A stretch of 64,000 nt of DNA from a virus. Positions 5,136 through 33,121 of this stretch are shown here, one piece after another. The notes under the pieces were generated by a model. That model did not search any database. It was not told the origin of the DNA and saw only the letters and a list, made by a program, of their open reading frames with translations. Position numbers and translations under genes: made by a program. Each line of letters starts with the position of its first letter. Position 1 is the first letter of the stretch. The stretch lies in the UHGV virus genome UHGV-0343432. One strand, 5' to 3'.

Positions 5136-5230
5136 GGTATTAAAATTTAAATTAATTAATATTTCCTATCCTTTGTATTAACCATTAGTCCTTGACCTGG
5201 TTTTCGGTGTTCTAGATTCAATAAATTATT

Positions 5231-13399: not shown

Positions 13400-14354
13400 C
13401 GTTCAGTAAGTCTTTAAGTAATTTCCTTCTTTTCTTTCTCTTTTCCCCGATGTAGTCAGAGTAATCGTCTATCATACCTGACCAATCGTTCATTTTAATC
13501 TCATTAGTTGCTTTCCCATCCCTAGACTTAGTCTTGACGACTTTTCTTTTAATGTAACAGTCAAAATTTTTTCCGGGATCACCTTCGTATCGAAATTCCG
13601 GGAGTTCTGCCTTATGAAACTCAAACCCATGTTTACCCAGTACCCAATACCCCATATCTGTACCCATATCACATACTCTCATTTGCATGGGTGACCCACA
13701 CATTAAAATATTTTTACGGAGGAGTTGTGGTTTATGGATATGTCCACATACTACGTAATCGAAATTCTGGAAGAAGGTGCTCAGTTTACTCTGGTCTCCT
13801 TTCCTTTCACATCTCATACCATTTGTGTCTTCAGCTCCAGCCAATTCTTTGTGAATCAGTAAAACTCTCGGTGCATCATGTTTACTTTGGGAGCATACTC
13901 TCATTGCATTCTCTAATCCTACATCATCTCTGAGATAAGGTATACCGAATACTCTGCAACCATTTACTTCTACCACTGAAAAATCAATACACTTCATAAA
14001 ATGGTATATCTCTGAAAAGGTTTTCACCCAACTTGGAGATTTTATTGGGTCATCACCATCCCTATCGTGATTACCTGAAATACAGTATACCATTTCTCCA
14101 CAGATATGGTCTATCTCTGAAAAAGTTTGGTTCACTAACCTAAATAGCTCGTTAGATATGTGGCTTGGGTTATGAAAAAGGTCCCCAGCGATGAGGACCT
14201 TGTTACCATTTGAATGGGCTTTAAAAACCAACTCTTTAAACCATGTTAGGAGCATCTTTGTCCTGTACAAGTCTTGGTTGAAAGTATTCCAATCATGGAT
14301 ATGTAAATCACCAAGACAATAAAACTTACCGGTAATCTTCATGGTTAAAATCAT
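13383..14354 (-). CDS. Mre11/SbcD-like nuclease (calcineurin-like metallophosphoesterase, T4 gp47 analog)
   Basis: Phosphoesterase motifs CLGDLHIHD, LIAGDLFHN, ISGNHD and GHIHKPQ. It directly follows the Rad50-like gene. Confidence 0.8.
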   Translation of the reverse strand: MILTMKITGKFYCLGDLHIHDWNTFNQDLYRTKMLLTWFKELVFKAHSNGNKVLIAGDLFHNPSHISNELFRLVNQTFSEIDHICGEMVYCISGNHDRDGDDPIKSPSWVKTFSEIYHFMKCIDFSVVEVNGCRVFGIPYLRDDVGLENAMRVCSQSKHDAPRVLLIHKELAGAEDTNGMRCERKGDQSKLSTFFQNFDYVVCGHIHKPQLLRKNILMCGSPMQMRVCDMGTDMGYWVLGKHGFEFHKAELPEFRYEGDPGKNFDCYIKRKVVKTKSRDGKATNEIKMNDWSGMIDDYSDYIGEKRKKRRKLLKDLLNDAELS

Positions 14355-15063
14355 TGTAGGTTATATACTCGTATAATTCTGAGAACTCATCTCCCTCGAA
14401 CCCTCCTATATTCTCAATAATTTGAGCCACTGCCTTAAATCTCTTCTTAAACTCGGAGATATGGATGGTAGCTTCTTTGATAATGTTCTTCCTACCCAGG
14501 AATCTTAAATTACCCCACTCGAAAGGGATATTTTGTTCATGGTAGTAATGTTTCACGTTCTCCATGAAATACCGGAAGTCAAACCCTTTGAATAACAGGT
14601 TGGATTTTATCTGATACCCTTCATCTGCTATACGTTTACCATCATTCTCGGTTTCCCATGAGAATGGTCGTATTAACCTGATAAATACTACGTTGTAATT
14701 CTCCAAATCATGTTGTAGCATTTCTATGCAGGTTTTGTTATATTCTCTTTGTAGTTGGTAGGGTTTATTACCATCCATGTAATATATCAGGTTATCAATG
14801 ATTGACCTATCTGTTACGAAATTATCATTATCCCCTAATACTTTTCTCCTGTTCTCAAGTATAGCTAACTGATATTTATGGGCCCAATTATAATCCCCTA
14901 ATAACTGGAGTGCGTGTTCATGGGATTTTACTCCAAACTCATCCCACACATTACTCGCTGATGTATTTATATAGGGTAAACCCAATTCTTTGGATATCAG
15001 TTTAGCTAAGGTTGTTTTTCCTAGACCTGATGCTCCGCTGAGATAAACTCTTAAATGTTTCAT
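14326..15063 (-). CDS. P-loop nucleotide kinase, dNMP-kinase-like (T4 gp1-like)
   Basis: An N-terminal Walker A at MKHLRVYLSGASGLGKTTLAKLI resembles the dNMP kinase N-terminus (MKLIFLSG..SGKDT). About 245 aa. Confidence 0.5.
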   Translation of the reverse strand: MKHLRVYLSGASGLGKTTLAKLISKELGLPYINTSASNVWDEFGVKSHEHALQLLGDYNWAHKYQLAILENRRKVLGDNDNFVTDRSIIDNLIYYMDGNKPYQLQREYNKTCIEMLQHDLENYNVVFIRLIRPFSWETENDGKRIADEGYQIKSNLLFKGFDFRYFMENVKHYYHEQNIPFEWGNLRFLGRKNIIKEATIHISEFKKRFKAVAQIIENIGGFEGDEFSELYEYITYNDFNHEDYR

Positions 15064-19974: not shown

Positions 19975-20015
19975 TATTGCAAATATAATATCCCATTATC
20001 TCCCATGCAATTCTC
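19975..20015 (-). promoter_or_regulatory. conserved promoter cassette variant upstream of the ligase, overlapping the 3' end of the polymerase gene
   Basis: ttgcaaatataatatccc...cccatgcaattc. The -7 element is TATATTTGCAA. The -33 element is degenerate (TTGC). Confidence 0.45.
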
Positions 20016-23000
20016 GAGTTTCCTTATTTTCCCACCAGTATGGAGTGTAACATTCCTTGTATACTTCTGAGTAATCAGTACCCCTCTCATATCCCCTCAA
20101 CTTTGACCATCTTAAACCCAACTCGAAATCAACTGCCATAGTAATACCTTTCAACTTAAACCCAAAGTATTTTTGAGTATCTGGGTCCCTACATATATCG
20201 AATAACTGGTCTACCACTTTGTCATTCATATCTTTCGGGTCAAGATAGAACATAAGAGAGTCATGTATTGTCCCAATTTGCTCGATAGAAGATGGAAGTT
20301 CTCCCCTCATGATTTTCTCCCTAATAAGTATACTAGAAAACAATGCGAAATCCGAAGCAGTTCCTTGGATAGGAGCATTTATGGCATCTCGTAACGCTTT
20401 TGCGTGTTTACCTCTATCTCTCTTATTTTTAGCATCTGGTAACCTTCTTTTCCTACCAAACGGAGATAATACATATCCATGTTTCTCAGCAAACTTCATT
20501 TGTTTATTGACAAACCTTTTAACGCCCGGGAAAATCTCAAACCATTCTTCCAAGAACTCAAGAGCTTCTTCCTTCGTAGCTTTATGTTTATCGGTTGATA
20601 GGGATTCTTTCAAATGATTTGGTCCCTGTTGATACAAGATACCAAATCCAATTGTCTTGGCTTGTTTTCTCTTCACTTTCCACTCCTTGTAATTTGGGTC
20701 ATCCTCGTTAGAGTAAATCTTATTTATCTCATCGTAATCCTCTCCATATTTCTTACAAGCAGTAGCCAAGTGTATGTCATGACCAACTCTAAACCATTCC
20801 AACATCTGCTTATCCTGAGACCAACCTGCAACTACCCGGAACTCTGCTGCTGAATAGTCAAGCTGCATCATAACCTTTCCTGGAGGGCATACAAACATTT
20901 GCTTAATGTCACTTGCCGTAGTATCTCGTGGCATATTCTGCAAGTTCGGATTCCGACTGCTAAGTCTCCCCGTGACCGTATTGCAACTCACATAATTAGA
21001 GCGAGTTACATAACTATGCTTATCATTTACTGATAAATCCATGATGGTCTTCTTACCTATATACTCTACCCTAATCTTAGTTAAGTATATGTATTTCCAT
21101 GATTCACCATTTATAACCCTTCTTACTTGAGCTTGTGATATCCCATACTTTTCAACTATTTGCCCTTGTGTCAATCCCTCTCTATGGTCTAACAATATTT
21201 GTCCAACAGTTTGAGTATCCAATACTGTCTTCCCATTGATAGCTCCGTTAGTAAATGCAGTTCTGGTATTCTTATAGGCACGTTTTGTATTCTCTGAGTA
21301 AGTGATACATTGTAAGTTCTCTGGGATATTATTTAGCGGGTTACAATCTATGTGGTCTATCACATACCCATCTGGTATACTGGCATTATTAAATGCTGAC
21401 CATACTAACCTTGATACTGGTAACATCTTTTTTATCCCAGTGCCATTCCTTAACCCCACTCTACTATGTAACCTATTACCAGATTTCTGTACCCTAGGTA
21501 CCATCTCATGTGGGTTGTTATAGTCTAACATACCTTGAGCACCTGGTATTTTTACTGAGAATATTTTACCTTCAGACGATGCTAAATAACCAGGCCAATT
21601 TGGGATTTCTTTAAATACCACTTCTCCATATTTCTTACCCACTTCTACAGGCTGTATATCTAACCTGGATACATCATGCATGATAACATCCAAGTCATAT
21701 TTAGCTATCTTCCAAATGGGTTTAAAACCACGTGGAGTAAGTAATTTATGGTATTTCGTACACTCAAGAACATCTCCCCTATCTGTAGTTACCCTGTAAG
21801 TATCCAGTACTCCCTTGTTTATAGTATGAGTTACCTGTTCCCAAGTTCCAGCATGAGTTAATACATAGATATTATCTTTTACCACATCTTTTACCCCCAC
21901 CTCTTTTGGAGCTATATCACCTATAACTATATCCCTTTCTTTTCCTACCAAAACCGTATCCTCAGTTACGCAACCATGGATAAGGAATGAACCATGAAGA
22001 GTGTTATCTGGGTTAAGTACATCCCTTATACCTACAATATAAGTGGAGTATAACTTGGTCATCTCTCGATACTTTAACAGAGTATCTATAAACCCAGTCT
22101 CATCCTTCTCCCTTAACTCGAGTAATACATCTTCACTCGTTGCTGGGTTATTGGTTGGTTTCTTGGTTTTCTTATCCTCTGTATACTTTATTATTGGTAG
22201 CTTCAACCCATACCTGTTATAATATAAAAAGTCAATGAGTTGTTTCACTGACTTTAGATTTAGTGGTTCAAGGGTTTTCTGGTCACTCTTGGTTATACCA
22301 ACTCCGGCTGAGTAATTATCATACTTCTTTTGTAGGTTAGCGATACTCCTTTGCAAGCTGCTAGCTTTACGTTTATCTTCAGTCTCATCTAACTCGTTGG
22401 TCTTTATTTCAATTTGTTCTAGAAGGTTACCCAATAGAGCTTTTTTAGCAGCCTTTAGTCTCTTCTTATTATACTTAACGAGAGATGGTACTGAGTACAT
22501 CTTCTTCTCAGCTTCCTCAATCTTTATTTTATAACTCTCCACTAACCCATCAAGGTATGGTCTATCAACCCAGTATCCCCTACTCTCAACTTCTGATAAG
22601 TTATATGAAGCCATCTCCAACAGGTTTCTATACAACTGGTAGAATCCCAGTTCTCTTACCCTACTCTCAAGGTATATAGCTAACCTAAGACAAAGGTCAG
22701 AGTCCAAAGCATTATAGGGTGCAAGTGTTTCAAGAGGTACGTTTGTCCAAAACTTAACCGTATCTTCTGGGGTCCTCTCTGTCTCCTCTCCCTTGATTGA
22801 GTAGTTTGCATACTCGGGAAAAAACGAATAAGCCAGAGATTTCAAATCGTGTGGTCTCTGCTCATTCAATAGGTATTTTAATAACATGGTATCCAAGATA
22901 ACTCCTCTCGGTTTTATACCATATTTAAGCCACCAACCATGCTCGAATTTAAAGTTGTGTGCTACCTTAGTTATCCTATCATTCTGGATTAATTCCCTAC

Positions 23001-23265
23001 CTATATACTTAAGGATCTTCAACCACTTATTCCCCTTTTTATTTGGTGAATCTTTGTGGGCTAAAGGTATAACATAGGCATACCCAGGTTGAAAAGCTAT
23101 AGATATACAAGTAGGGAACCCATTAGGATTTGAACTATGGTGACCAGATGTCTCATAGTCATGAGCACAATACCCAGTCACCTTGCAGTACTCGACAACT
23201 TTCTTCACATCAGCCATGGTAATGGCATAACTGAAGTGATAATTATCTAGTACCGACTTGTTCAT
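19996..23265 (-). CDS. family-A DNA polymerase (Pol I-like, with 3'-5' exonuclease) interrupted by an intein
   Basis: Exo I motif at AHDYETSG. Pol A motifs TGRLSSRNPNLQNMP, DYSAAEFRV and the motif-C region GTIHDS. The total is 1089 aa including an insert of about 330 aa. Confidence 0.85.
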   Translation of the reverse strand: MNKSVLDNYHFSYAITMADVKKVVEYCKVTGYCAHDYETSGHHSSNPNGFPTCISIAFQPGYAYVIPLAHKDSPNKKGNKWLKILKYIGRELIQNDRITKVAHNFKFEHGWWLKYGIKPRGVILDTMLLKYLLNEQRPHDLKSLAYSFFPEYANYSIKGEETERTPEDTVKFWTNVPLETLAPYNALDSDLCLRLAIYLESRVRELGFYQLYRNLLEMASYNLSEVESRGYWVDRPYLDGLVESYKIKIEEAEKKMYSVPSLVKYNKKRLKAAKKALLGNLLEQIEIKTNELDETEDKRKASSLQRSIANLQKKYDNYSAGVGITKSDQKTLEPLNLKSVKQLIDFLYYNRYGLKLPIIKYTEDKKTKKPTNNPATSEDVLLELREKDETGFIDTLLKYREMTKLYSTYIVGIRDVLNPDNTLHGSFLIHGCVTEDTVLVGKERDIVIGDIAPKEVGVKDVVKDNIYVLTHAGTWEQVTHTINKGVLDTYRVTTDRGDVLECTKYHKLLTPRGFKPIWKIAKYDLDVIMHDVSRLDIQPVEVGKKYGEVVFKEIPNWPGYLASSEGKIFSVKIPGAQGMLDYNNPHEMVPRVQKSGNRLHSRVGLRNGTGIKKMLPVSRLVWSAFNNASIPDGYVIDHIDCNPLNNIPENLQCITYSENTKRAYKNTRTAFTNGAINGKTVLDTQTVGQILLDHREGLTQGQIVEKYGISQAQVRRVINGESWKYIYLTKIRVEYIGKKTIMDLSVNDKHSYVTRSNYVSCNTVTGRLSSRNPNLQNMPRDTTASDIKQMFVCPPGKVMMQLDYSAAEFRVVAGWSQDKQMLEWFRVGHDIHLATACKKYGEDYDEINKIYSNEDDPNYKEWKVKRKQAKTIGFGILYQQGPNHLKESLSTDKHKATKEEALEFLEEWFEIFPGVKRFVNKQMKFAEKHGYVLSPFGRKRRLPDAKNKRDRGKHAKALRDAINAPIQGTASDFALFSSILIREKIMRGELPSSIEQIGTIHDSLMFYLDPKDMNDKVVDQLFDICRDPDTQKYFGFKLKGITMAVDFELGLRWSKLRGYERGTDYSEVYKECYTPYWWENKETRELHGR
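20980..21972 (-). mobile_element. HNH-type intein inside the polymerase (residues ~432-762)
   Basis: The insert begins with Cys (CVTEDTVLV, intein block A) immediately before the conserved T(V)TGRLSS segment. It contains HNH motifs HIDCNPLNN...NL and an HTH (GLTQGQIVEKYGISQAQVRR). Intein block F is at MDLSVNDKHSYV and the terminal residues are ...SCN followed by +1 Thr. Confidence 0.55.
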
Positions 23266-24028
23266 CTCTTATACAATTTTTAAGTATGTTCCAATCTTTC
23301 CTGTACGAGTGGAGAGATGCAATGTTATGGTATAAGTAACCCTGTTTGAGTTCTCTTAAACCTTTTGACCTGAGTACTTCTCGTATGTACTCTTTCAGTT
23401 GCCAAGCTAACCATACATCATTCCCGAAATGAGTTACTACATCGGCTGAACGTTGGTTGTATATCAGGTGTACCTGTTGGTTACGGATAATTACCTGATA
23501 ATACATGGAGCAAGGTACTCTCTTCCTTCCACCTATATATGCTCCATCCTTCTCCAAATCCCATACAGGAATAATTCCCTGACGAGTATCAGGGTTTCTG
23601 AGTAACTCATTGATGACTCTCTGTAAATTACCAATGGCATCTTCTGACTCATCACCTGGACAGAAGTTCAATCTCTCCCCATAGGCGTAATCAAACTTAC
23701 CATTTACCAAGAACTCTTCCCAAATCTCTTTTCGGATTTTCCAAGCTTCACCAGGATTTAAACCTTTCGGGTCAACTCTCTCGTTAAACTCTGCAATAGC
23801 CCATTTCTTTGTTGACTCGATAGCAGTCTGGGTACCATTGAATAGATACTCTTCCTGGCCCAATGTCAATAGGCAATACGAGTAATTTAATATCTCCTTT
23901 GTCTCATAGTTAATGTCCCCCTCGATATTCTTGTTTTGCATGGATTTGGGAGTAACTATAGCACTCATCTCGTAGACATCCCTCCTTACCTCTGACATCA
24001 ATTCATAACAGTCGTCAAATACTCTCAT
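23243..24028 (-). CDS. thymidylate synthase-fold protein, probably a pyrimidine (dCMP/dUMP) hydroxymethylase rather than a canonical ThyA
   Basis: LLRNPDTRQGIIPVWD matches ThyA LKNDPDSRRIIVSAWN. The catalytic-Cys segment is VPCSMYYQ, where the His of the PCH motif is replaced by Ser. The downstream segment is YNQRSADVVTHFGNDVW, with Asp at or next to the specificity Asn position. Confidence 0.5.
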   Translation of the reverse strand: MRVFDDCYELMSEVRRDVYEMSAIVTPKSMQNKNIEGDINYETKEILNYSYCLLTLGQEEYLFNGTQTAIESTKKWAIAEFNERVDPKGLNPGEAWKIRKEIWEEFLVNGKFDYAYGERLNFCPGDESEDAIGNLQRVINELLRNPDTRQGIIPVWDLEKDGAYIGGRKRVPCSMYYQVIIRNQQVHLIYNQRSADVVTHFGNDVWLAWQLKEYIREVLRSKGLRELKQGYLYHNIASLHSYRKDWNILKNCIRDEQVGTR

Positions 24029-24560
24029 TTACATTTTGTTTTAGTGTTCTTAAATATCTTTCATTTTCCCTAATTTTCTTATAGGTTTTCTTTACACACC
24101 CACTTGATACTCCCCAATCCCTAGCTATCTGAGCCATACTTATACCTTGTTTTACTAATTCTGGTATCATCAGCCTCTGTTTATCTGATAACCTTGATAC
24201 CTTACTCTTCTCCCCAAACTTATTATATCCCGGGTGTTCTTCTCCAAATACTTTCTTCTCAAGTCCTAATTTATAAGCATGAGTAGTATTCTGAGAATAC
24301 GTTACCCATTCAAGGTTAGTGGATACATTATTTTTCTTATTACCATCCTTGTGATTTACACAAGGATAATTATTGGGATTAGGTATAAATGCTAAGGCAA
24401 CTAACCTATGAACAAATACCCTTACTTTACCCTTAAAACTAACACGTAGATATCCACATGAATTTTCTTTAGGTACCATCAACTCCCCCTTATCCTTATT
24501 AAATACTTTACCAGTATCTGATATCTCTAAGTTAGGATATTTGTCCAAGGTTCTCCACAT
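24015..24560 (-). mobile_element. free-standing HNH homing endonuclease (HNH_3 + HTH)
   Basis: HNH motifs VHRLVALAF...NHKDGNKKNNVSTNLEW...SQN. C-terminal HTH at GISMAQIARDWGVSSGCVKK. Wedged between the ThyA-fold and GroES genes. Confidence 0.65.
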
Positions 24561-24563
24561 GGC

Positions 24564-24908
24564 TTACTCCTCCACTTTTTCGATTGTCCCCCAAACATCA
24601 ATGTCAGAGATAAGTTTAAAAGCTTTAGCTTCCTTTACCTCTTCATTAACCCTTGTCTTCATTTTCAGGTTCATCTCGCAACCTGAGAAGTGAGAGAAGA
24701 TAACTGTATCACCGATGTTGTAATCAGTTACAGCATCTCCTTTTCTCACTACCTCTCCAATAACTGGTTTACCATCTTGAGTATTACCCGGGATAATGAT
24801 ACCAGATTTTAATTTCTCATCTCCCCCGATAACCTCTACAAGGAGCTTACTCGCTCCCACCTTTGTAATGTTTACATTGTCTCTGATTAATGAAATTTTC
24901 TTTTCCAT
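24564..24908 (-). CDS. GroES-like co-chaperonin (T4 gp31 analog)
   Basis: 114 aa. KSGIIIPGNTQDGKPVIGEVVRKGDAV...IGDTVIF matches the GroES mobile-loop/beta-barrel pattern (SAGGIVLTGSAA..GEVLAVG...GD.V.F). Confidence 0.6.
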   Translation of the reverse strand: MEKKISLIRDNVNITKVGASKLLVEVIGGDEKLKSGIIIPGNTQDGKPVIGEVVRKGDAVTDYNIGDTVIFSHFSGCEMNLKMKTRVNEEVKEAKAFKLISDIDVWGTIEKVEE

Positions 24909-24956
24909 ATCTTTAGTATTAATTTTAATTGAATAGTACTCAACATGTTAGTGGGT

Positions 24957-25769
24957 TTATTGACCTGGTAGTTTGCAATCCTTAGCAAGTGTTTTCAATT
25001 TTGCTTTAAAACCAATGAACCCATCCTTAGCTATTAACTGCCTACATATCCTTATATGGACCTTATATTTCAGGCTCTCTGCATAATCGGGGTCAGAGAA
25101 TTTTTCTAATAGCTCCAACATTTTTTTGGTTACGTCATTCTCTTTCCCTTTCAATAGCTTATGGAGATCTTTGTGGATATGATATCCAGTTAATAACTCG
25201 ATAGATGACCACATATTCCCACAGAATAAAGTAACTGCCAGGTCTACTCCCTCTCCATAGATATACTCACCCATTCTCTGGATAAGTAAGAAGTCAAATA
25301 TCAACCTCTTGGTTACTTCTGATGACCTGATGTTAACGACCATCCTTCTAGTATCATCCTTGTGTCTCCTTTGGAATACCACTGAAAGTAAGCAACCTTT
25401 TCCCGAGTCATGTTGGTTAGTGAACTTATAGGCTATATTATATGAACCAGCATTAGCCCTTTCTTTTGCCTGTATTTGAGATTTTACAAGGTCAAGTTGA
25501 TTAAGGCTAAGGTAGTTCGCTATAAGACGGGTCCATTTTTGCAAGTGGTACCCGAAGAGTTTTGCAAAATCAAATTCAGGGTCTATCCAAGCCTTGTTAA
25601 TATCTATCACCACATTGTATGCAATGAGTTGGGATGATACCCTTATCCCACTTTCCGGTAGTTTATCTGCGTTTAGGAAAAGATACTCATTGATCTTTTC
25701 CCAAGCGTGTTGTGTTGTAGGTGCTGTTAAATAAATCATATTAATATTTTGAGCGGATCCTAAACTCAT
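24957..25769 (-). CDS. divergent second ThyA-fold paralog (non-canonical active-site motifs)
   Basis: SGKGCLLSVVFQ parallels PCHAFFQF. VVNIRSSEV parallels LYQRSCDV. LIFDFLL parallels LPFNIAS. YHIHKD parallels HLYSNH. Collinear with ThyA but with Gly-Cys instead of Pro-Cys. Confidence 0.35.
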   Translation of the reverse strand: MSLGSAQNINMIYLTAPTTQHAWEKINEYLFLNADKLPESGIRVSSQLIAYNVVIDINKAWIDPEFDFAKLFGYHLQKWTRLIANYLSLNQLDLVKSQIQAKERANAGSYNIAYKFTNQHDSGKGCLLSVVFQRRHKDDTRRMVVNIRSSEVTKRLIFDFLLIQRMGEYIYGEGVDLAVTLFCGNMWSSIELLTGYHIHKDLHKLLKGKENDVTKKMLELLEKFSDPDYAESLKYKVHIRICRQLIAKDGFIGFKAKLKTLAKDCKLPGQ

Positions 25770-26526
25770 TTATCTTGTTCTTCTTATAGTAGATATGGTA
25801 AATGCTTCTTGCTGTCATACCCACGAATGCAAAGAACCCAAACATGAACAAGGTACCCTCCATAAGTTTTACCCTGTAAGTTACCTCGTCTGTCATCATC
25901 TGAGTTTGTTTCCAGGGTTTATTCTTCAAGCAATTCCTTGCTATCTGGAATTTGTAGGTTGATCTCCACAATAGTTGGCACATCTTTTGGTCTCTCTCGA
26001 TACCCAGTTGATTACCACCTCTCATGAACTCATCAGTGATTGGTCCATTAATTACCTTGTACCCAGGACAATATACCTTTCCTAGTACTGCCTTCGCCAT
26101 CTGAGCACCCCTTCTCAATAACAGGTCAAGAGTATCATCTTCTGGTTCTGCCTCACAATATTTCCGGATATCTTCTTCCTCTATACCCGAGTAAATCAAT
26201 AACTCAAGCCAGAAGTGAAGAGCATCTGCACATTCTTCATTGAAGTTCTGAAGGAATGGCATCATGTTTGAACGGCTATCCCCTTTTGAGAACATCTCCA
26301 TCAGCTCATCGTAGGACTCATACCCCTCTCCCAGTTCCTCAATCACTCTTCCCACAAAATCCTTGATTAGGGATTGAGATACTTTTAAATTCACATTTAC
26401 CGGGTACTGTGGTAGACCCTCTATCTTGATATAAGAATCAAGCAACACTTTCTGTAACCGATACATCTCAGTTAACCCTTTTCCCAGTGGGTAAACCACT
26501 TCTTCTTTTATGTCCCTTATGTCCAT
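25741..26526 (-). CDS. MazG-like all-alpha NTP pyrophosphohydrolase (candidate dCTPase/dUTPase) with a C-terminal hydrophobic extension
   Basis: ExxE at VIEELGEGYE and E..D at FNEECADALHFWLELL, matching the MazG EExxE / EExxD metal-binding helices. The C-terminus has a hydrophobic segment LFMFGFFAFVGM. Confidence 0.5.
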   Translation of the reverse strand: MDIRDIKEEVVYPLGKGLTEMYRLQKVLLDSYIKIEGLPQYPVNVNLKVSQSLIKDFVGRVIEELGEGYESYDELMEMFSKGDSRSNMMPFLQNFNEECADALHFWLELLIYSGIEEEDIRKYCEAEPEDDTLDLLLRRGAQMAKAVLGKVYCPGYKVINGPITDEFMRGGNQLGIERDQKMCQLLWRSTYKFQIARNCLKNKPWKQTQMMTDEVTYRVKLMEGTLFMFGFFAFVGMTARSIYHIYYKKNKINEFRIRSKY

Positions 26527-26529
26527 AAC

Positions 26530-26928
26530 CTATTTGTTAGATTTATAATACTTTTTAATTAACTCTTTTAACCTATCTGAATCCAGGTTTAAATCCTGTC
26601 TCAATTTAGCTTTAATCTTTAATTTCGAATAGCCCTTTGATTTGTACTTCTCAATCAACCTCTTTGCTTCCTTAGCATCTTTCTCATTTAAATACTTGGC
26701 TTCATCCAAATCTTTAAAATCTTTCTCCTTTGCTAAGAGCTCTCGTTGAATTTTGTTATTTTGCATCTGAGCTATGGCACATATTTCAATATCCCCACAT
26801 ATCTTACAATCCTTATCCCGTGGGTCATATTGTGTCCCGAAACATGGGTCATCTGGAGTACCTATCTTGCTCAAATCTATAGGTTTAGATAAATCAATGG
26901 TTTCCTCTGGTTTTTTCTTCTTTGCCAT
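26530..26928 (-). CDS. Cys-rich small protein (putative zinc-binding) with a K-rich tail
   Basis: DPCFGTQYDPRDKDCKICGDIEIC cysteine cluster. Confidence 0.45.
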   Translation of the reverse strand: MAKKKKPEETIDLSKPIDLSKIGTPDDPCFGTQYDPRDKDCKICGDIEICAIAQMQNNKIQRELLAKEKDFKDLDEAKYLNEKDAKEAKRLIEKYKSKGYSKLKIKAKLRQDLNLDSDRLKELIKKYYKSNK

Positions 26929-26944: not shown

Positions 26945-28363
26945 CTATAATAGTTTTCCCTTGTAATCTTCAATTACATTGAGCCCCTCATCCTTGTAAT
27001 ATTTAAGCCTGTGTTTTGAATGTCTTTTCAGGTAAGTTCCTTCATCAAAGAAGTCATCAAAGTAGGTTACTTTCTTAGATTCATGAGAACGAAGAGCCCT
27101 ACCCAGTAACTGGAGTGCCTGTATAGCTGAGTCTCCAGATGCTAGGTTTTGCATATATTGGATTAAGGGCATATTCTGGCCAACCTTAATGATGAGTGAC
27201 GCTATGAGAATATTGGTCTCACCTCTCTTGAACCTATCAAGCTTCTCTTTCCTGTCAGATACGTTGTGATGTATATACTCTATCTTTAGATAAGGGAATT
27301 CTTTCTTATACCTTTCGTATGTTTCCTCTACCTGAGCTATATACTTACATACTACCAAGATAGGTATATGTCCTTCTCTCACGTGATATTTAGCAGCATC
27401 TATAGCCCTGTCTAACCTTTCCACTCCATAGGTGATAGCAGCATCAAATTCTGATTTATAGTCAGAAGCTCCAACTGGTTTGGTATTCCCCTTTCTCATC
27501 GTAATAATGATGTTAGAAGATACTCCCATCTCCACTAATTCCTTGTTCTTTATCACGAACGTTTCCTGCCCAAAGAAAGATTCGACAGTGATGTTCTTTA
27601 CCTTATCCTTGTGTCTTAATGCAGTACCACTCAAACCAACTCTAATGGGGATTAGGTATAGCTTATTTAATACCTTTCTAGCGGTTTTACTCGTAGCAAG
27701 ATGACATTCATCATATATGAGTACATTGTATTGACTTAGATACTTCCAATAATTCTCTATATTTCTCACCAGAGTGGGCAACATACATACCATGATGTCA
27801 CCCCATTGAACTTCTTTCCCCTGCATATAACCCCAACTATCAAACATATCTGGTAAGTCATCCTTGAATTGGTTATATAGCTCGGTACCATTCACGATAA
27901 CTAAGGATTTAGCCTTATACACTGAAGCATGGATTAGCCCAGCTATTAAAGTTTTCCCAGCATTCGTTGCTGCTCCCACTATACCTCTCGGGAATGGTAC
28001 TCCCCCACATGAGTTTTTAAGTATACTCCATGCTGCCTTTCTCTGGTAAGGTCTTCTCTTCAAATCTCCAATATGAACTGGCATAGCTTGGATTTGTGGT
28101 AGATTCCTGTTATCCTCTATATCATAGGGTACTCCATGATTCTCAATCCACTCTATCACTCTGGGTAATAGGCCAGTCTCACAATAACCCCTATCACTTA
28201 CCATGTGTACTAAACCATCCCAACCATGTGGCATACTCGCTCTCATGTAAAAAGCTTGTGGGTGCCGGAAGGATAACTCCTTATAAAGTTTTTGGAGGAC
28301 TTTTATATCCCCCTCCACTTTAAACTTATTGTTATTCAGTTTGATTGTTACCATTTGTCCCAC
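26945..28363 (-). CDS. SF2 DNA/RNA helicase (DExH-box, UvsW-like position)
   Basis: Walker A at GAATNAGKT. DECH box at LIYDECH. Motif III at LSGT. Motif VI at QALQLLGRALR. Confidence 0.7.
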   Translation of the reverse strand: MGQMVTIKLNNNKFKVEGDIKVLQKLYKELSFRHPQAFYMRASMPHGWDGLVHMVSDRGYCETGLLPRVIEWIENHGVPYDIEDNRNLPQIQAMPVHIGDLKRRPYQRKAAWSILKNSCGGVPFPRGIVGAATNAGKTLIAGLIHASVYKAKSLVIVNGTELYNQFKDDLPDMFDSWGYMQGKEVQWGDIMVCMLPTLVRNIENYWKYLSQYNVLIYDECHLATSKTARKVLNKLYLIPIRVGLSGTALRHKDKVKNITVESFFGQETFVIKNKELVEMGVSSNIIITMRKGNTKPVGASDYKSEFDAAITYGVERLDRAIDAAKYHVREGHIPILVVCKYIAQVEETYERYKKEFPYLKIEYIHHNVSDRKEKLDRFKRGETNILIASLIIKVGQNMPLIQYMQNLASGDSAIQALQLLGRALRSHESKKVTYFDDFFDEGTYLKRHSKHRLKYYKDEGLNVIEDYKGKLL

Positions 28364-28587: not shown

Positions 28588-29452
28588 TATCTAGTGATTT
28601 TAATCTATCCAAGTTTAACCATGACATTGATTTAGGTTTCTTAGCACTCACCCCATTCTTCTTCATATACCTGTATAACCTTTCCACTGCCTTATCTCCA
28701 ACAAACTGGGATGGAAAAGGTATACCTCCTGTAAACGCTAACCCATCAAACTGAGCGTTCATATATAGCTCTGGTTTTACTTTCACCTCTGCAATATATT
28801 CAGCTGCTTTCACGAACCATATCTTTGATTCTGGTTTCTTTGAGACATCATCCACAATCCCTGTACTATCTAATACAGCCTTGTTATATATCTTGCAAAG
28901 AGTGTCAGTTATATCTTTATTCTTATCTTGTTTCTCAGCCTGTAAAGCTTCATACTCAGTACATATCCTGGAATGTAATGGTAAGAATTTATTTAACCCG
29001 TACACTCTCATCATCTTCAATCCCAGTGTACAGTACTGTATAAATGCTTCTCTGTTATCTAATTCAAAATCCTCAGCGAAGTCAACCGCATTAGAGGCTA
29101 CATCTTTTAGTGTTGCCCATTCCTTACTTGTAGAAGTAATCAGGTTTATACCTCTATGCTTCATCTGTTTCCTTACCTTAAAAAGTATGGATGCAAATAG
29201 AACTGCACTATCCTTGGATGTTAAGGTTACCTTCTCCACCTTCTCTTGTATCTTCTTATTGCTAACTACTACTGCTCTATTTGATATCGAGTAGGGGCTG
29301 GCAAATTTTAATAATTGGTCAACTAGATTTTCTTTATTTGTGTTAATTGTAATTACTCCTTGCTTTTGTAATTTTTCTACTACTAAGAGCAAATTACTCT
29401 TCCTAATGTGGATGCTCGGTTCATTTCTTGAGGATACTGTATTTTCTTCCAT
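28574..29452 (-). CDS. hypothetical replication-module protein
   Basis: 292-aa ORF between the helicase and the primase. No motif recognised. Confidence 0.5.
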   Translation of the reverse strand: MEENTVSSRNEPSIHIRKSNLLLVVEKLQKQGVITINTNKENLVDQLLKFASPYSISNRAVVVSNKKIQEKVEKVTLTSKDSAVLFASILFKVRKQMKHRGINLITSTSKEWATLKDVASNAVDFAEDFELDNREAFIQYCTLGLKMMRVYGLNKFLPLHSRICTEYEALQAEKQDKNKDITDTLCKIYNKAVLDSTGIVDDVSKKPESKIWFVKAAEYIAEVKVKPELYMNAQFDGLAFTGGIPFPSQFVGDKAVERLYRYMKKNGVSAKKPKSMSWLNLDRLKSLDNGEE

Positions 29453-30434
29453 GATTAATTGCCATTTTATAATTAATGAGTTCTCCGTAAGTTAAGAATT
29501 TATGCTTCCTTATCCTCCGTATGGTTTCTTTTTTACCAAGGTCATTTACATCTAAATAAGTCCCATTCGATTTCTTATCTTCCCAATACACTACCCTCAC
29601 TTTCTTAAAGTTCACCAACTTTAATGCAAGGTTAACACTCTCCACTAAAGCATCTGGGTCAAGTAGTAAATCTATAGCCTCGACTGGAGAAGAAAGTATA
29701 GTGTTAATCTGCCACTCAGTTAGTAATTTCCCAGCTGTAGCTATGGCAGAATCTCCTATTGTCTCAGCGTTGAAAGCCCCCTCACATAATTGAACCCTCT
29801 TATATAGGTATAGAGCTTCCATATTATATATCACGTATGCTTTCCCTAACCCTGTCTCATTCGCTACTGGGTTTTTGTATTTGGTTGTTCCAGCTCCCAT
29901 CACTTTCCTAGCATTAAAATATACCAACTGGTCATGCATGATATAGGGGATTATTACATAGCCCTTGTATGGTCCTGTATCACAATAACCAAATCCCTTT
30001 TGAGATAGAGCTGCAATGGAGAATCCCCTATTCTTAAGGTATTGTCTACATACCTTGGCTATATGATTGGTACCGAATATAATGTTATGGTACCCCTCTG
30101 GGAGTTCTAAGCCCTTTACTTTATTATTTATCTTTAGCTCTGACTCTGGTACCTTAACATCAAGGAAGTCCCAATCACCAGAAAAAACCTGTTCCCAGGC
30201 TTTTTTCTCAGTTTCAGAATTGGTTAACTCCATGATGGCTTGTATTGGTGGTTTATCATACCCACACCTAAAGCAATGTGTGTTGCCTGTTAAGGGTTTT
30301 ACTCCAAACTTCCCCACTGCTCCACAAAATGGACAGTTACAATTTATCCAACCCCTAGACTTAGGTACTGCATGAAGGTTATGTATAAACCACCCATATA
30401 AATATTTTACTGTTCTCTTACTATACCTCGCCAT
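29421..30434 (-). CDS. DnaG-type DNA primase (CHC2 zinc finger + Toprim)
   Basis: Zinc finger at NCPFCGAVGKFGVKPLTGNTHCFRCGYD. Toprim glutamate at CEGAFNAETIGD and DxD at LLLDPDAL. Confidence 0.7.
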   Translation of the reverse strand: MARYSKRTVKYLYGWFIHNLHAVPKSRGWINCNCPFCGAVGKFGVKPLTGNTHCFRCGYDKPPIQAIMELTNSETEKKAWEQVFSGDWDFLDVKVPESELKINNKVKGLELPEGYHNIIFGTNHIAKVCRQYLKNRGFSIAALSQKGFGYCDTGPYKGYVIIPYIMHDQLVYFNARKVMGAGTTKYKNPVANETGLGKAYVIYNMEALYLYKRVQLCEGAFNAETIGDSAIATAGKLLTEWQINTILSSPVEAIDLLLDPDALVESVNLALKLVNFKKVRVVYWEDKKSNGTYLDVNDLGKKETIRRIRKHKFLTYGELINYKMAINHGRKYSILKK

Positions 30435-30969
30435 AATGTGTATAACTTAATACTCGATATATAGTTCTTTTAGACACCCCGAATCTTTTGGCTAACTCTT
30501 TTCTTTGTAACCCAGATTCCCTTATGAACTTTACTTCTTCTCTTGTCAATTTACTATTAGGATGTTTTACTCCCTTCTTTGGGAATATACCATCTTCTAT
30601 AGCCTGGTGTATGTTCTCTTTTTGAGTTCCCCAGTATAAGTTATCTAAGCTTAAATTCATGGGGTTATTATCTCTGTGACAAACATACTCTTTCCCATCT
30701 GGGTTAGGTATATATGTTATGGCTAATAACCTATAAAGAGATTTTAACCTGTTATATACATTTACATAAGGCCTATAAATTTTTACACCGGCTGAAGTCA
30801 CATTACTCAACTTCTTTACCAATGCTACTCTAACCCAATTACCCGATCTGTTAGAATATACTTTAGCATCCCTAGTTATCCTGTAATTAGGATAACCTGG
30901 AATAACCTCACCATATTTCTTACAAATCTCCTGCATTATTTTTTCCTTCTGATTCTCCAGTTTCTTCAT
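30421..30969 (-). mobile_element. free-standing HNH homing endonuclease between the primase and helicase genes
   Basis: HNH motifs YVCHRDNNPMNLSLDNLYWGTQKENIHQA. C-terminal HTH at LTREEVKFIRESGLQRKELAKRFGVSKRTIYRVL. Overlaps both flanking genes. Confidence 0.65.
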
Positions 30970-32320
30970 CCATCAAATAACTTTCGAATTGTTTATTAAA
31001 TTCCATTGCCTGTTCTTTATTCAGTTCTCTAAACTTTTGCCTGTCCATATCCACATTAAATATAGCTCTCCCTCTAGGTACCCCATCACGATGTTCTATA
31101 ATCTCTAGCCTTTGTAGCCCAGATTCCTCCTCCTCTTGGGTACGATTTAAACCAAAAGCCGCGTTCACGTGTCTTATCACGTCGATTGCACCCGCTATAT
31201 CTTCTCCAACATACCTTGACCTCTCATGTTTAGCTCCGGTACGAGTAACATGGTTAGCTGACCAGTGTATCTCTATATTATGTTTGAGCATAACATTAGA
31301 TATGTCTGTGTATGCTTCTGATATACGTTCTGATAGAGCTTCTTTCCCAGTGTTAGAACCCATCTTACCCATGTAATCAGTGATTAATACATTGGGATAG
31401 AATCCAAAGTTCTCCTCAAGTTCACAGATTAATTTATCTACAGAGTTACCATTTGTTATTAACGCGGGCATACGCCTAACAACAACCTCTCCACCTAACC
31501 TTTTATACTTTCTAAAGGTTTTCTTCACATCTCTATCGTAATCTCCAGAAAGGATTTCCATTTTGGTTTTGTTACTCATACACTGTTCCAGACGAGCCAT
31601 GTATTCTTCTTCACCATTCTCAAGATCAACCACCAAAACCTTCTTCCCCATTTTAAGATATCCCACTATCACGTTAACAAGGAAAGCCGTTTTCTTTTTC
31701 TTTGGCCTATCCACTATTACTATGGTGGCTCCCTTTGGATACCCACCTGCATTGGTTAACTTGTTAATTTGCCTGAATGGTGTTGGGAATATAGTTTGTA
31801 CATCCCTTCTCATTAATTGTCTATCAGACAAACCCCCAATAAGAAAGGACCTTGTTAGGTCCTCTACTATTACTCTTGGTGATATTGCTTTACTTACTTT
31901 CTCTGAGAAGTTATGGTATTTATTGAAATCAAGGATATCCATATTCTCAATGGTATCCTTCAAATCTAAATACTGGGCGAATTTCTCTGTTTGATTTACT
32001 ATATACTCGGGATCTTTAATCGCTCCCTTGAATAAATCTCTGGCTAAATCCCTCACGTTATTTAACTCAGATTCCAATAAAGAAGAAGTTACAGATGTAT
32101 CCTGTAAAGTCTTTCTCAACTCCTCCATGTAAACTGCTTTCCCGGGAACTTTCCTGAATGACTTGTAGTAATCTTTTATGACCTTTGCCAGGATAGCGTG
32201 CTCAATCAAAGTGAAATACTCCTCTGAGTACAAGTTAACTATCTTGTATCCCTCTGGATGCTGCAAAGTGTATTTTAATATCTCGAACTGAAAGTCTGTA
32301 TCAAACTCAAACTTAGCCAT
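30920..32320 (-). CDS. DnaB-family replicative helicase with a non-canonical Walker A (KKT)
   Basis: A DnaB N-domain-like helix bundle, then GATIVIVDRPKKKKTAFLVNVIV (DnaB: LIIVAARPSMGKTAFALN). H2 motif at VLITDYMGKM. The C-terminus has RecA-like motifs. Confidence 0.6.
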   Translation of the reverse strand: MAKFEFDTDFQFEILKYTLQHPEGYKIVNLYSEEYFTLIEHAILAKVIKDYYKSFRKVPGKAVYMEELRKTLQDTSVTSSLLESELNNVRDLARDLFKGAIKDPEYIVNQTEKFAQYLDLKDTIENMDILDFNKYHNFSEKVSKAISPRVIVEDLTRSFLIGGLSDRQLMRRDVQTIFPTPFRQINKLTNAGGYPKGATIVIVDRPKKKKTAFLVNVIVGYLKMGKKVLVVDLENGEEEYMARLEQCMSNKTKMEILSGDYDRDVKKTFRKYKRLGGEVVVRRMPALITNGNSVDKLICELEENFGFYPNVLITDYMGKMGSNTGKEALSERISEAYTDISNVMLKHNIEIHWSANHVTRTGAKHERSRYVGEDIAGAIDVIRHVNAAFGLNRTQEEEESGLQRLEIIEHRDGVPRGRAIFNVDMDRQKFRELNKEQAMEFNKQFESYLMDEETGESEGKNNAGDL

Positions 32321-32482: not shown

Positions 32483-33121
32483 ATGGAAATTCACAGGCTA
32501 AAGGAAATGCAAGATGACTACGATGAAGAGTTATTCAACAAAATCTACAAGGATTGCAGTAAACTTATGGACAAACTCACTTTTGGTATTAACCCCCTCT
32601 ACTATGGAGTTACAACAGATATTATCCGGAGCTGGTTTGATGATAAGTTTATTTATGTTTATAATAAGTATTATGGTGAGATGTCGGATAAATCGCTCAA
32701 GTCACATATCATCAAGGCATTGCAACAATTCAGATGCAGGATTCTCAGAGGAGCATACACCCAACATTCTGAAAAGAATATTGAGATGGTTCGGTTAGAT
32801 GATGAAGAGTATCAGAGATATAACATGGATGTTATAGATGAGATAGAACCAGAAGTTGATGAAGAGCTCCTCTCTAAAATCAAGGACTTCATGAAACAAA
32901 CATTAAGTGAGGATGCTTACTTCTTATTTAATTTACAACTCAACCCTCCCCCAATGGTTCTATCACATGACAAAGAATCCCAAGATGCTAAATGGGCAGC
33001 ATTCTTAAATCTCCCACAAGAAGAATCCACCTACATTTATTTTGATAAACTCCGAGAAGAGATACAAAGAGGGACCAAACGATGTAGGAACAAATTCAAG
33101 GACCAAGTAACTACAAAATAA
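32483..33121 (+). CDS. phage-encoded sigma-70-family (ECF-like) sigma factor candidate
   Basis: Region-2-like segments DEELFNKIYKDCSKLMDKL...DIIRSWFDDKFIYVYNKY...SLKSHIIKALQQFRCRILRG. Possible region 4 at AAFLNLPQEESTYIYFDKLREEI. The only plus-strand gene in the window. Confidence 0.45.
   Translation: MEIHRLKEMQDDYDEELFNKIYKDCSKLMDKLTFGINPLYYGVTTDIIRSWFDDKFIYVYNKYYGEMSDKSLKSHIIKALQQFRCRILRGAYTQHSEKNIEMVRLDDEEYQRYNMDVIDEIEPEVDEELLSKIKDFMKQTLSEDAYFLFNLQLNPPPMVLSHDKESQDAKWAAFLNLPQEESTYIYFDKLREEIQRGTKRCRNKFKDQVTTK

What the first reader, a model, noticed from the sequence alone, without database searches (positions are those of the whole stretch)
23243..26526. Candidate DNA hypermodification module: two non-canonical ThyA-fold proteins plus a MazG-type dNTPase (and a dNMP kinase at 14326..15063)
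ORF 23243..24028 is clearly thymidylate-synthase-fold (NPDTRQGIIPVWD aligns with NDPDSRRIIVSAWN). However, the invariant PCH is PCS, and the specificity region reads RSADVVTHFGNDVW, with Asp at or adjacent to the Asn that defines dUMP specificity. That is the pattern of dCMP/dUMP hydroxymethylases such as T4 gp42, not of true thymidylate synthases. A second, more divergent ThyA-fold paralog (24957..25769) is collinear with ThyA but carries GC...FQ, NIRSSEV and LIFDF. Immediately beside these is a MazG-like NTP pyrophosphatase (EELGE ... EECAD), comparable to the T4 gp56 dCTPase. Elsewhere in the module is a gp1-like dNMP kinase. Together this is the T-even logic for replacing a canonical pyrimidine with a hydroxymethylated and possibly further modified base, here in a phage of a Bacteroidota host. 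Two hydroxymethylase-like paralogs with no canonical ThyA could indicate two modified bases or a second-step modification.
Basis: partly seen in the sequence, partly recalled or inferred. Interest (0 to 1): 0.75.

Follow-up and report, generated by a model that had tools for sequence, protein, structure and literature searches.

The report
Phage cytosine-modification cassette with extra ThyA-fold enzyme
This gut phage carries a tightly linked gene set (a dCTPase-like enzyme, two thymidylate-synthase-fold enzymes built to bind cytosine, and a separate nucleotide kinase) that most likely replaces cytosine in its DNA with a modified base, and one of the two enzymes belongs to an uncharacterised family that recurs in over 100 cultured phages, including the therapeutic phage Muddy.

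Summary

E-D-A is a translationally coupled cassette next to the DNA polymerase. It is present in at least 80 related ~82-86 kb gut-phage contigs that resemble Flandersviridae. It also occurs in unrelated cultured phages such as Muddy, Gordonia phages, C. perfringens CPAS-15 and Yersinia P744.

The T4-like logic is supported: deplete dCTP, modify dCMP at C5, re-phosphorylate, incorporate. The product is not established. A is not a gp42 orthologue, because it has Arg at the Leu143 position and His at the Gly173 position. D retains only a Cys/Arg/Asp core and lacks the folate-contacting segment, so its reaction is unknown. No transferase for post-replicative decoration was found.

Verdict: a new variant of a known kind. 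It is worth testing, and cultured carriers make that easy.

The parts
25741..26526 (-). E: dimeric dUTPase/dCTPase-family nucleotide pyrophosphatase (all-alpha NTP-PPase superfamily). Proposed dCTPase (possibly also dUTPase) that supplies dCMP and depletes dCTP.
24957..25739 (-). D: divergent ThyA-fold protein of an uncharacterised family (phrog_34294/13667). It has a conserved Cys126/Arg148/Asp159 core and its reaction is unknown. The ORF extends to 25769, but homologues start at Met11, 1 nt after the E stop codon.
23243..24028 (-). A: ThyA-family enzyme of a distinct clade. Signature in E. coli numbering: Arg143, Ser/Thr147, Asp169, His173, Asp177, and a truncated C-terminus. Proposed dCMP-specific, folate-dependent C5 one-carbon transferase (hydroxymethylase-like).
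   Evidence: Pfam PF00303 at 2.4e-13. PDB matches. Family invariants R170, C173, S174, D196, H200, D204, H240, Y242. Position mapping. Far below all NCBIfam TS equivalog cut-offs: 50 bits against a cut-off of 174.55 for the best-matching model. Only 21 residues follow the His207 equivalent, against 57 in E. coli TS, 63 in the XP12 methylase and 30 in T4 dCH.
14326..15063 (-). P-loop nucleoside-monophosphate-kinase-like protein. Candidate kinase for the modified dNMP.
   Evidence: phrog_2107 'thymidylate kinase' at 7.6e-15. Pfam AAA_28 at 3.4e-9 and dNK at 0.003. Conserved at this position in 54 of 82 loci. Similarity to the cassette kinases of other phages is limited to the P-loop.
19996..23265 (-). 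Family A DNA polymerase immediately downstream of A (23-nt overlap). Presumed consumer of the modified dNTP. Interrupted by an intein-like HNH insert.
   Evidence: Pfam DNA_pol_A at 3e-71, with HNH_3 inside at aa 617-660. The order E-D-A-PolA is conserved in 78 of 82 loci.
24015..24908 (-). Insertions that split D from A in this lineage: an HNH homing endonuclease (24015-24560) and a GroES-like gene (24564-24908). They are not part of the conserved cassette.
   Evidence: Pfam HNH_3/NUMOD4 and Cpn10. The HNH gene sits at variable positions and GroES is present in only 18 of 82 loci. In most relatives D and A overlap by 4 nt.

Best explanation
The genes form a pre-replicative pathway that replaces or dilutes cytosine in phage DNA with a C5-modified cytosine, following T-even logic with one extra enzyme. 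All of the following steps are inferred.
1. E, a dimeric dUTPase/dCTPase-family enzyme like T4 gp56, hydrolyses dCTP (and probably dUTP) to the monophosphate. This removes the canonical triphosphate and feeds dCMP into the pathway.
2. In A, Cys173 attacks C6 of dCMP. Cytosine is selected by Asp204, the Asn177 equivalent. A one-carbon unit is transferred from methylene-tetrahydrofolate to C5. The active site is open because the C-terminal lid is missing, and it is lined by invariant Arg170 and His200. The exocyclic methylene is therefore resolved by water (giving 5-hydroxymethyl-dCMP) or by another nucleophile, not by hydride.
3. D is a ThyA-fold enzyme that keeps only the nucleophile Cys, the phosphate-binding Arg and the cytosine-reading Asp, and it has lost the folate-contacting segment. 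It acts on the same nucleotide pool. The most likely role is a second step on the product of A. Alternatively, D acts as an obligatory partner of A.
4. The P-loop kinase and host NDP kinase make the triphosphate, and the adjacent PolA incorporates it.

Shown here: the folds, the conserved residues, the gene linkage and the phyletic spread. Not shown: substrates, product and DNA content.
For: - A is in the ThyA family, with all mononucleotide-binding and catalytic residues kept and Asp invariant at the Asn177 position.
- Asn177Asp switches thymidylate synthase to dCMP, and this substitution is statistically associated with cytosine-modified phage contigs (PMC8670742; PMC13326640).
- A has a truncated C-terminus like T4 dCH. 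The XP12 dCMP methylase instead keeps the long TS tail and has an adjacent DHFR.
- A keeps Asp169, so it lacks the D169N signature of flavin 5-hydroxy-dCMP synthases.
- E shares Pfam PF08761 with T4 gp56 and has the dimeric dUTPase fold.
- Relatives carry a separate canonical trimeric dUTPase right beside E, so E is not simply the phage's dUTPase.
- D has the ThyA fold, with Cys/Arg/Asp invariant across the whole family.
- E-D-A are contiguous in ~80 loci, with E->D gaps mostly of -1 to +15 nt (a minority of computed overlaps up to -83 nt, plus insertions) and frequent 4-nt D/A overlaps.
- The same Kin-E-D-A order recurs on unrelated backbones: PolA siphoviruses, PolB phages, actinophages and clostridial phages.
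Against: - No chemistry was measured. The product of A cannot be read from sequence.
- The Leu143 position is Arg, a state not seen in any characterised family member. XP12 shows that this position is not a strict predictor.
- The A clade has Arg-Gln instead of the Arg-Arg phosphate clamp.
- D lacks the deoxyribose-binding His/Tyr and the Arg-Arg pair, so it may not bind a mononucleotide the way ThyA does.
- No host-DNA nucleases, glycosyltransferases or other downstream modifiers were recognised in the window or in 10 kb beyond it.
- GenBank annotators read the same cassette as an ordinary thymidylate kinase / dUTPase / thymidylate synthase set.
- In the held paper library, my searches (10 of 10 used) found no report that any carrier phage has modified DNA.
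Confidence: 0.6

Rival explanations
1. This is an ordinary thymidylate supply module. E is a dUTPase that makes dUMP, A is a divergent but genuine thymidylate synthase, the kinase is a thymidylate kinase, and D is a decayed, non-catalytic ThyA paralogue.
For: This is how the cassette is annotated in Muddy, JacoRen57, P744 and CPAS-15. E belongs to a family named for dUTPases. The window has no other thymidylate synthase.
Against: Asp is invariant at the Asn177 position in every A-clade member examined. His147 is replaced and the C-terminal lid needed for hydride transfer is absent. Scores are far below all NCBIfam TS equivalog cut-offs. Some carriers have an additional Asn177 ThyA, a dCMP deaminase and a canonical dUTPase alongside the cassette. 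D keeps Cys/Arg/Asp under strong conservation, which is not the pattern expected of a decaying paralogue.
Confidence: 0.12
2. D is not an independent enzyme. It is an obligatory partner of A, either in a heterodimer in place of the usual ThyA homodimer or as a scaffold of a dNTP-synthesis complex. It tunes A's specificity or channels its product.
For: ThyA enzymes are obligate dimers that share active-site arginines across the interface (established knowledge). A has lost one of the two (Arg-Gln) and D has lost both. The D and A genes overlap by 4 nt in many genomes and always co-occur.
Against: The nucleophile Cys, the phosphate Arg and the base-reading Asp of D are invariant down to 17% identity. 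This argues for catalysis in D itself. No multimer modelling could be run. One contig (L093) has two D paralogues and a single A.
Confidence: 0.15
3. The module makes 5-hydroxy-dCMP, or another flavin-dependent oxidation product. D would be the flavoenzyme, because its closest solved structure is the flavin-dependent dCMP monooxygenase of phage HY126.
Against: The diagnostic D169N substitution of 5hodCMP synthases is absent: D has Glu, or other residues in distant members, and A has Asp. No arabinosyl or glycosyl transfer genes accompany the cassette. The 9iqc match may only reflect that both proteins are compact versions of the fold. Hosts of the gut-phage carriers (inferred, not tested here) and of the C. 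perfringens phages are anaerobes, and an O2-dependent hydroxylase would be odd there (inference).
Confidence: 0.08
4. A is a dCMP methylase, and the phage DNA carries 5-methylcytosine made before replication, as in Xanthomonas phage XP12.
For: Asn177Asp alone converts TS into a dCMP methylase (references cited in PMC8670742). The folate-contacting Trp80 and Asp169 equivalents are kept in A.
Against: The XP12 enzyme keeps Gly173, a 63-residue C-terminal tail and an adjacent DHFR. A has His173, a 21-residue tail and no DHFR nearby. XP12 has no E or D homologue.
Confidence: 0.08

Closest known systems
T-even phage hydroxymethylcytosine pathway (T4 gp56 dCTPase/dUTPase, gp42 dCMP hydroxymethylase, gp1 dNMP kinase)
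   Same: The enzyme classes match. E and gp56 share Pfam PF08761. A and gp42 share the ThyA family, the Asp at the Asn177 position, a non-His residue after the Cys and a short C-terminus. A nucleotide kinase is present and the genes lie beside the replicative polymerase.
   Different: A is not closer to gp42 than to thymidylate synthases. It has Arg rather than Asp at the Leu143 position, His rather than Gly at position 173, and Arg-Gln rather than Arg-Arg. An extra ThyA-fold protein (D) is an invariant member of the cassette. No glucosyltransferase is present. The kinase is unrelated to what could be compared.
Flavin-dependent 5-hydroxy-dCMP synthases (RB69 gp48, DLP3 gp80, HY126 enzyme PDB 9iqc)
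   Different: They are recognisable by the Pfam TS profile and carry the D169N signature. D has no Pfam match and has Glu or another residue there. They come with arabinose-activation and transferase genes, which are absent here.
Xanthomonas phage XP12 dCMP methylase
   Same: A ThyA homologue with Asp at the Asn177 position that makes a modified dCMP before replication.
   Different: It has a long TS-type C-terminus, Gly173 and an adjacent DHFR and dCMP deaminase. It has no E or D homologues.
Dimeric dUTPases (Campylobacter jejuni 1w2y, staphylococcal phage 5myd, Leishmania 2yay)
   Same: They share the fold and the acidic metal-binding motifs of E.
   Different: E is longer (261 aa, with an inserted region at about residues 113-175). 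It is linked to cytosine-specific ThyA-fold enzymes. In relatives it coexists with a canonical trimeric dUTPase.
'Flandersviridae' gut phages (Benler et al. 2021, PMC8008677)
   Same: The genome is ~82-86 kb and collinear, with a contractile-tail structural block, then DnaB/DnaG/PolA, then a long block of unknown ORFs. Related contigs come from human gut samples.
   Different: Membership was not tested with marker phylogeny. That paper does not mention the ThyA-like or dUTPase-like genes.

Membership tests
ThyA / dCMP hydroxymethylase superfamily (Pfam PF00303): protein A | Profile match above the curated cut-off | tested here: met
   50.3 bits against a cut-off of 24.3, E 2.4e-13.
ThyA / dCMP hydroxymethylase superfamily: protein A | Catalytic Cys146, phosphate-binding Arg166/Ser167, Tyr94, and deoxyribose-binding His207/Tyr209 | tested here: met
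   C173, R193/S194, Y116 and H240/Y242 are invariant in the family.
Canonical thymidylate synthase (dUMP methylase): protein A | Asn177 reading uracil; His147; C-terminal lid; NCBIfam equivalog score | tested here: not met
   Asp204, Ser174, 21-residue tail versus 57 in E. coli TS, and 50 bits against a cut-off of 174.55 for the best-matching equivalog model.
T4 gp42-type dCMP hydroxymethylase: protein A | Asp at the Asn177 position and a short, open C-terminus | tested here: met
T4 gp42-type dCMP hydroxymethylase: protein A | Acidic residue (Asp/Glu) at the Leu143 position, and specific sequence affinity to gp42 | tested here: not met
   Arg170 is invariant. The family profile scores TS 6auj at 4e-15 and T4 dCH at 4e-14.
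T4 gp42-type dCMP hydroxymethylase: protein A | Product is 5-hydroxymethyl-dCMP | not testable with these tools
   Needs an enzyme assay or nucleoside LC-MS.
Flavin-dependent 5-hydroxy-dCMP synthase: proteins A and D | Asn at the Asp169 position (D169N signature, PMC13326640) | tested here: not met
   A has Asp196. D has Glu151, which is variable in distant members.
ThyA fold: protein D | Structural match to solved family members | tested here: met
ThyA family by sequence: protein D | Pfam/NCBIfam/PDB profile match, or profile-profile match to the A family | tested here: not met
   No hit. hhalign probability is 1.9%, although it aligns RSSEV..D with RSADV..D.
ThyA family active site: protein D | Folate-contacting segment (Trp80/Trp83/Tyr94), Arg126/Arg127, His207/Tyr209 | tested here: not met
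   About 40 fewer residues lie between the second sheet strand and the strand that precedes the Cys (secondary structure, compared with E. coli TS topology recalled from knowledge). Tyr110/Asn111 sit at the Arg-Arg position, and there is no conserved His/Tyr. Part of this is inferred from the model.
Dimeric dUTPase/dCTPase family PF08761: protein E | Profile match above cut-off, all-alpha fold, acidic metal-binding motifs | tested here: met
MazG (sensu stricto): protein E | MazG profile or structural match | tested here: not met
dCTPase activity: protein E | Hydrolyses dCTP | not testable with these tools
   Indirect evidence only: relatives have a separate trimeric dUTPase next to E.
T4 gp1-type dNMP kinase: ORF 14326-15063 | Homology to gp1, and activity on the modified dNMP | not tested
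   Only P-loop kinase and PHROG 'thymidylate kinase' matches were obtained. There is no similarity beyond the P-loop to the cassette kinases of other phages.

The most novel reading that the evidence does not exclude
The A/D pair makes a cytosine derivative that has not been described, at the mononucleotide level. A generates the C5 exocyclic methylene in a pocket lined by invariant Arg and His. The methylene is then captured by a nucleophile other than water or hydride, or the 5-hydroxymethyl product is further converted by D. On this reading D founds a folate-independent catalytic branch of the thymidylate-synthase fold. The resulting base would be present in abundant human-gut phages resembling Flandersviridae and in over 100 cultured phages, including the therapeutic mycobacteriophage Muddy.
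Probability: 0.3. Interest if true: 0.85.

Novelty: new variant of a known kind. Interest (0 to 1): 0.7.

Why it matters
If the cassette does what its parts imply, a common lineage of human-gut phages and many laboratory phages carry modified cytosine that nobody has looked for. Those laboratory phages include Muddy, the Gordonia GTE2 group, C. perfringens phages proposed for poultry biocontrol, and Serratia, Yersinia and Pseudomonas phages.

Such a modification would affect restriction and CRISPR evasion, host range, sequencing and amplification bias in viromes, and engineering of therapeutic phages.

The D family would be a new reaction type on the thymidylate-synthase scaffold. That scaffold has recently been shown to support unexpected chemistry, namely flavin-dependent hydroxylation. 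Because cultured carriers exist, the question can be settled with a nucleoside LC-MS run and a four-gene co-expression experiment.

Tried and rejected
- Sequence-only routes to place D failed: Pfam, NCBIfam, a single-sequence and profile search of PDB, and profile-profile comparison with the A family. Only structure prediction resolved it.
- The E family profile found nothing in PDB by sequence. Structure was needed here too.
- I looked for downstream modifiers (glycosyl-, aminoacyl- or carbamoyl-transferases, DNA kinases). I scanned the unassigned ORFs of the non-structural part of the window (1-10.9 kb), the (+)-strand ORF at 32483-33121 and the ORFs of the replication module. I also used precomputed Pfam for the 10 kb beyond the window start. 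Nothing was found. About 8 kb of the ~82 kb genome was not seen.
- I looked for gene fusions of D that might hint at function. Longer family members only carry low-complexity tails.
- I considered that CPAS-15 gene 0021, annotated as a 'colanic acid glycosyltransferase', was a real transferase. It is a D homologue with no Pfam match.
- A guessed accession for phage PMBT14 returned PMBT3, which is irrelevant. One malformed pattern call was made. An exact-match walk beyond the window gave only 2.4 kb.
- Literature searches for modification data on Flandersviridae, C. perfringens phages, P744, Muddy or actinophages found none.
- Heterodimer modelling of A with D could not be run with the tools available.

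Full report
**What is there.** All genes in the region lie on the minus strand. Read in the direction of transcription, the replication module is:
- DnaB helicase (30920-32320)
- an HNH endonuclease
- primase (29421-30434)
- two unknown ORFs
- an SF2 helicase (26945-28363)
- a small Cys-rich ORF (26530-26928)
- E (25741-26526)
- D (24957-25739/25769)
- a GroES-like gene (24564-24908)
- a second HNH endonuclease (24015-24560)
- A (23243-24028)
- a family A DNA polymerase (19996-23265)
- ligase, SSB, a UvsX-like recombinase and an exonuclease
- a P-loop kinase (14326-15063)
- SbcD, SbcC and RusA

**Protein A.**
- A matches Pfam Thymidylat_synt well above the curated cut-off and phrog_160 'thymidylate synthase'.
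- As a single sequence, its best solved relative is T4 dCMP hydroxymethylase (E 3.3e-10).
- A profile of 41 family members is about equally close to a bacterial thymidylate synthase (4e-15), T4 dCMP hydroxymethylase (4e-14), the flavin-dependent dCMP monooxygenase 9iqc (3e-12) and MilA (6.5e-12). A is therefore a separate branch and not a gp42 orthologue.
- Alignments to E. coli ThyA, T4 gp42 and the XP12 dCMP methylase give this map: Trp103=Trp80, Tyr116=Tyr94, Arg149-Gln150=Arg126-Arg127, Arg170=Leu143, Cys173=Cys146, Ser174=His147, Arg193/Ser194=Arg166/Ser167, Asp196=Asp169, His200=Gly173, Asp204=Asn177, His240/Tyr242=His207/Tyr209.
- Arg170, Cys173, Ser174, Asp196, His200 and Asp204 are invariant in the family.
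- According to the literature read here, Asn177Asp switches specificity from dUMP to dCMP and, together with changes at position 147, marks phage contigs with modified cytosine (PMC8670742).
- An acidic residue at 143 goes with hydroxymethyl or hydroxyl products, and Asp169Asn marks flavin-dependent 5-hydroxy-dCMP synthases (PMC13326640).
- A therefore reads as cytosine-specific and not a 5-hydroxylase. Its pair of basic residues (Arg143, His173) occupies two of the twelve positions within 6 Å of C5, a combination not seen in any characterised member.
- Only 21 residues follow the His207 equivalent, compared with 57 in E. coli TS, 63 in the XP12 methylase and 30 in T4 dCH. A thus lacks the C-terminal lid used for hydride transfer. 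This favours a hydroxymethylase-like outcome over methylation, but that is inference.
- A falls far below every NCBIfam thymidylate-synthase equivalog threshold.

**Protein D.**
- D has no Pfam, NCBIfam or PDB sequence match. Its only family hit is phrog_34294, of unknown function.
- It has 165 close homologues, none annotated.
- An AlphaFold2 model built on 47 sequences is confident (pLDDT 91.8, pTM 0.90).
- A search of viral models returns dCMP hydroxymethylases and thymidylate synthases after D's own family.
GKGC carries the nucleophile (Cys126). RSSEVTKRLIFD is the counterpart of RSCDVFLGLPFN, with Arg148=Arg166, Glu151=Asp169, Arg155=Gly173 and Asp159=Asn177.
- A full scan of 1.84 billion representative proteins finds only 203 relatives. 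In an alignment reaching 16-20% identity, the invariant residues are Tyr86, Cys126, Arg148 and Asp159. That pattern fits a working enzyme that attacks C6 of a cytosine nucleotide, not a decaying paralogue.
- D has about 40 fewer residues where ThyA carries the folate-contacting Trp80/Trp83 and Tyr94. It has Tyr-Asn in place of Arg126-Arg127 and no conserved His207/Tyr209. It probably does not use folate in the classical way.
- Its reaction cannot be deduced with these tools.

**Protein E.**
- E matches Pfam dUTPase_2 above the cut-off.
- T4 gp56 falls in the same Pfam family. It aligns with E over the C-terminal motif, and within the window it hits only E.
- 'gp56-like' is therefore fair, but 'MazG-type' holds only at superfamily level.
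- In relatives such as L045, a canonical trimeric dUTPase sits immediately upstream of E. This argues that E has a different job there, most simply dCTP hydrolysis.

**Gene linkage.**
- The window is 99% identical to an 82,387-bp IMG/VR contig (L003).
- Across the 82 loci then held (80 IMG/VR contigs recovered with the D profile plus two GenBank phage records), E was found in 81, A in 80 and PolA in 78. The order is always E-D-A-PolA.
- E and D are mostly separated by -1 to +15 nt, with a minority of computed overlaps up to -83 nt and of insertions. D and A often overlap by 4 nt.
- The GroES-like and HNH genes that separate D from A in the window are lineage-specific insertions.
- Size, collinearity, the contractile-tail block, DnaB/DnaG/PolA and the long block of unknown ORFs match the description of 'Flandersviridae' (PMC8008677). 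That paper does not mention these genes. I did not verify membership or the Bacteroidota host.

**Spread beyond this lineage.** This was the most informative result. Distant D homologues sit in the same arrangement on unrelated backbones:
- dUTPase_2, D and an A-clade ThyA beside a UDG-fused PolA (L089, L093)
- the same set beside a PolB, with a thymidylate-kinase-like gene directly upstream (L095)
- in short contigs (L092)

In cultured phages the same four genes are annotated 'thymidylate kinase, dUTPase, hypothetical protein, thymidylate synthase':
- Mycobacterium phage Muddy gp49-46 and JacoRen57 gp46-43
- Yersinia P744 ORF025-028, where D is labelled 'pyrimidine hmase synthase'
- C. perfringens CPAS-15 0023-0020, where D is labelled 'colanic acid glycosyltransferase'

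Profile comparison confirms the middle gene as a D homologue in three of these: 96.6%, 97.6% and 94.4% probability for CPAS-15, P744 and JacoRen57. For Muddy gp47 the evidence is 61.8% identity to JacoRen57 gp44 and the conserved Cys/Arg/Asp.

tblastn finds D-type genes in 85 actinophage records (about 68 of them Gordonia), 18 proteobacterial phage records and 3 uncultured records. The 10 clostridial phage records carry the flanking A and E homologues, but the D homologue was confirmed only in CPAS-15. The D-type genes usually lie next to the 'thymidylate synthase'.

Every A-type protein examined from these contexts carries Arg143, Ser/Thr147, Asp169, His173 and Asp177. The A clade, the D family and the E family thus form a mobile cassette whose parts have stayed together across very different phages. 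This is strong evidence that they work together.

**Mechanism.** The best-supported reading is a T-even-style pre-replicative pathway.
1. E removes dCTP and supplies dCMP.
2. A adds a one-carbon unit at C5 of dCMP.
3. D acts on the same nucleotide pool, either as a second step or as a partner of A.
4. A kinase and host NDP kinase regenerate the triphosphate.
5. The adjacent polymerase incorporates it.

The folds, residues and linkage are shown here. Substrates, product and the composition of virion DNA are not.

I found no glycosyl- or other transferase in the scanned unassigned ORFs of the window or in the next 10 kb. If there is a second modification step, D is the only visible candidate.

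The main rival, an ordinary dUTPase / thymidylate synthase / thymidylate kinase set, is contradicted by several observations: the invariant Asp177, the missing lid, the sub-threshold TS scores, and the coexistence in some carriers of a separate Asn177 ThyA, a dCMP deaminase and a trimeric dUTPase.

**Novelty.** The overall logic is known. Three things appear to be undescribed in the literature I could search: the specific A clade (Arg143/His173/Asp177), the D family, and their obligatory pairing. That library is incomplete, so prior work in subscription journals cannot be excluded.

Noticed in passing
window 19996-23265 (-), roughly aa 432-745 of the polymerase: The family A DNA polymerase is interrupted by an intein-like element. 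It begins after 'LIHG' with Cys ('CVTEDT...') and ends '...YVSCN' before 'TVTGRLSS'. It contains an HNH_3 domain and a helix-turn-helix. Relatives such as L045 have an uninterrupted 758-aa PolA.
   Followed up: partly
window 24015-24560 (-) and 30421-30969 (-): Two related HNH/NUMOD4 homing endonucleases. In related contigs their homologues sit at many different positions in the replication module, so they are mobile.
   Followed up: partly
window 24564-24908 (-): A phage-encoded GroES-like co-chaperonin (Cpn10, 3e-7) lies between D and A. It is detected in only 18 of 82 loci.
   Followed up: no
L045 7790-8344 and 8356-9075: Flandersviridae-like relatives carry a canonical trimeric dUTPase (PF00692) directly upstream of E. 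A second ORF follows it, with a coiled-coil N-terminus (weak coiled-coil Pfam matches) and a C-terminal region that by eye resembles the dUTPase ORF but has no Pfam match. A ferritin-like gene lies at 4682-5302. The window lacks all three.
   Followed up: partly
L089 4454-5098 and 8140-8595; L093 3596-4390: A 47-kb phage with a UDG-fused PolA has, besides the E-D-A set, a second Pfam ThyA with Asn177 and Asp at the Leu143 position (dUMP hydroxymethylase-like), plus a dCMP deaminase. Another contig (L093) has two D-family paralogues. These may be phages that modify two pyrimidines.
   Followed up: no
L100 (Mycobacterium phage Muddy, 35270-37942 of NC_022054.2): The therapeutic phage Muddy carries the full Kin-E-D-A cassette (gp49-gp46). 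Its 'thymidylate synthase' gp46 has the Arg143/His173/Asp177 signature, and gp47 keeps the D-family Cys/Arg/Asp.
   Followed up: partly
PMC8008677 (Flandersviridae description); not present in the window: Some Flandersviridae have ispD-like and licD-like nucleotidyltransferase genes inserted in the replication module. The authors interpreted them as cell-wall or isoprenoid functions. Given the adjacent cytosine-modification cassette, they could instead decorate a hydroxymethyl base. This was not examined.
   Followed up: no
window 26530-26928 (-): A small conserved ORF (132 aa) with a CxxxxxxxxxxCxxC motif and a basic C-terminus always lies immediately upstream of E (75 of 82 loci). It has no family match beyond an unknown-function PHROG.
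   Followed up: no
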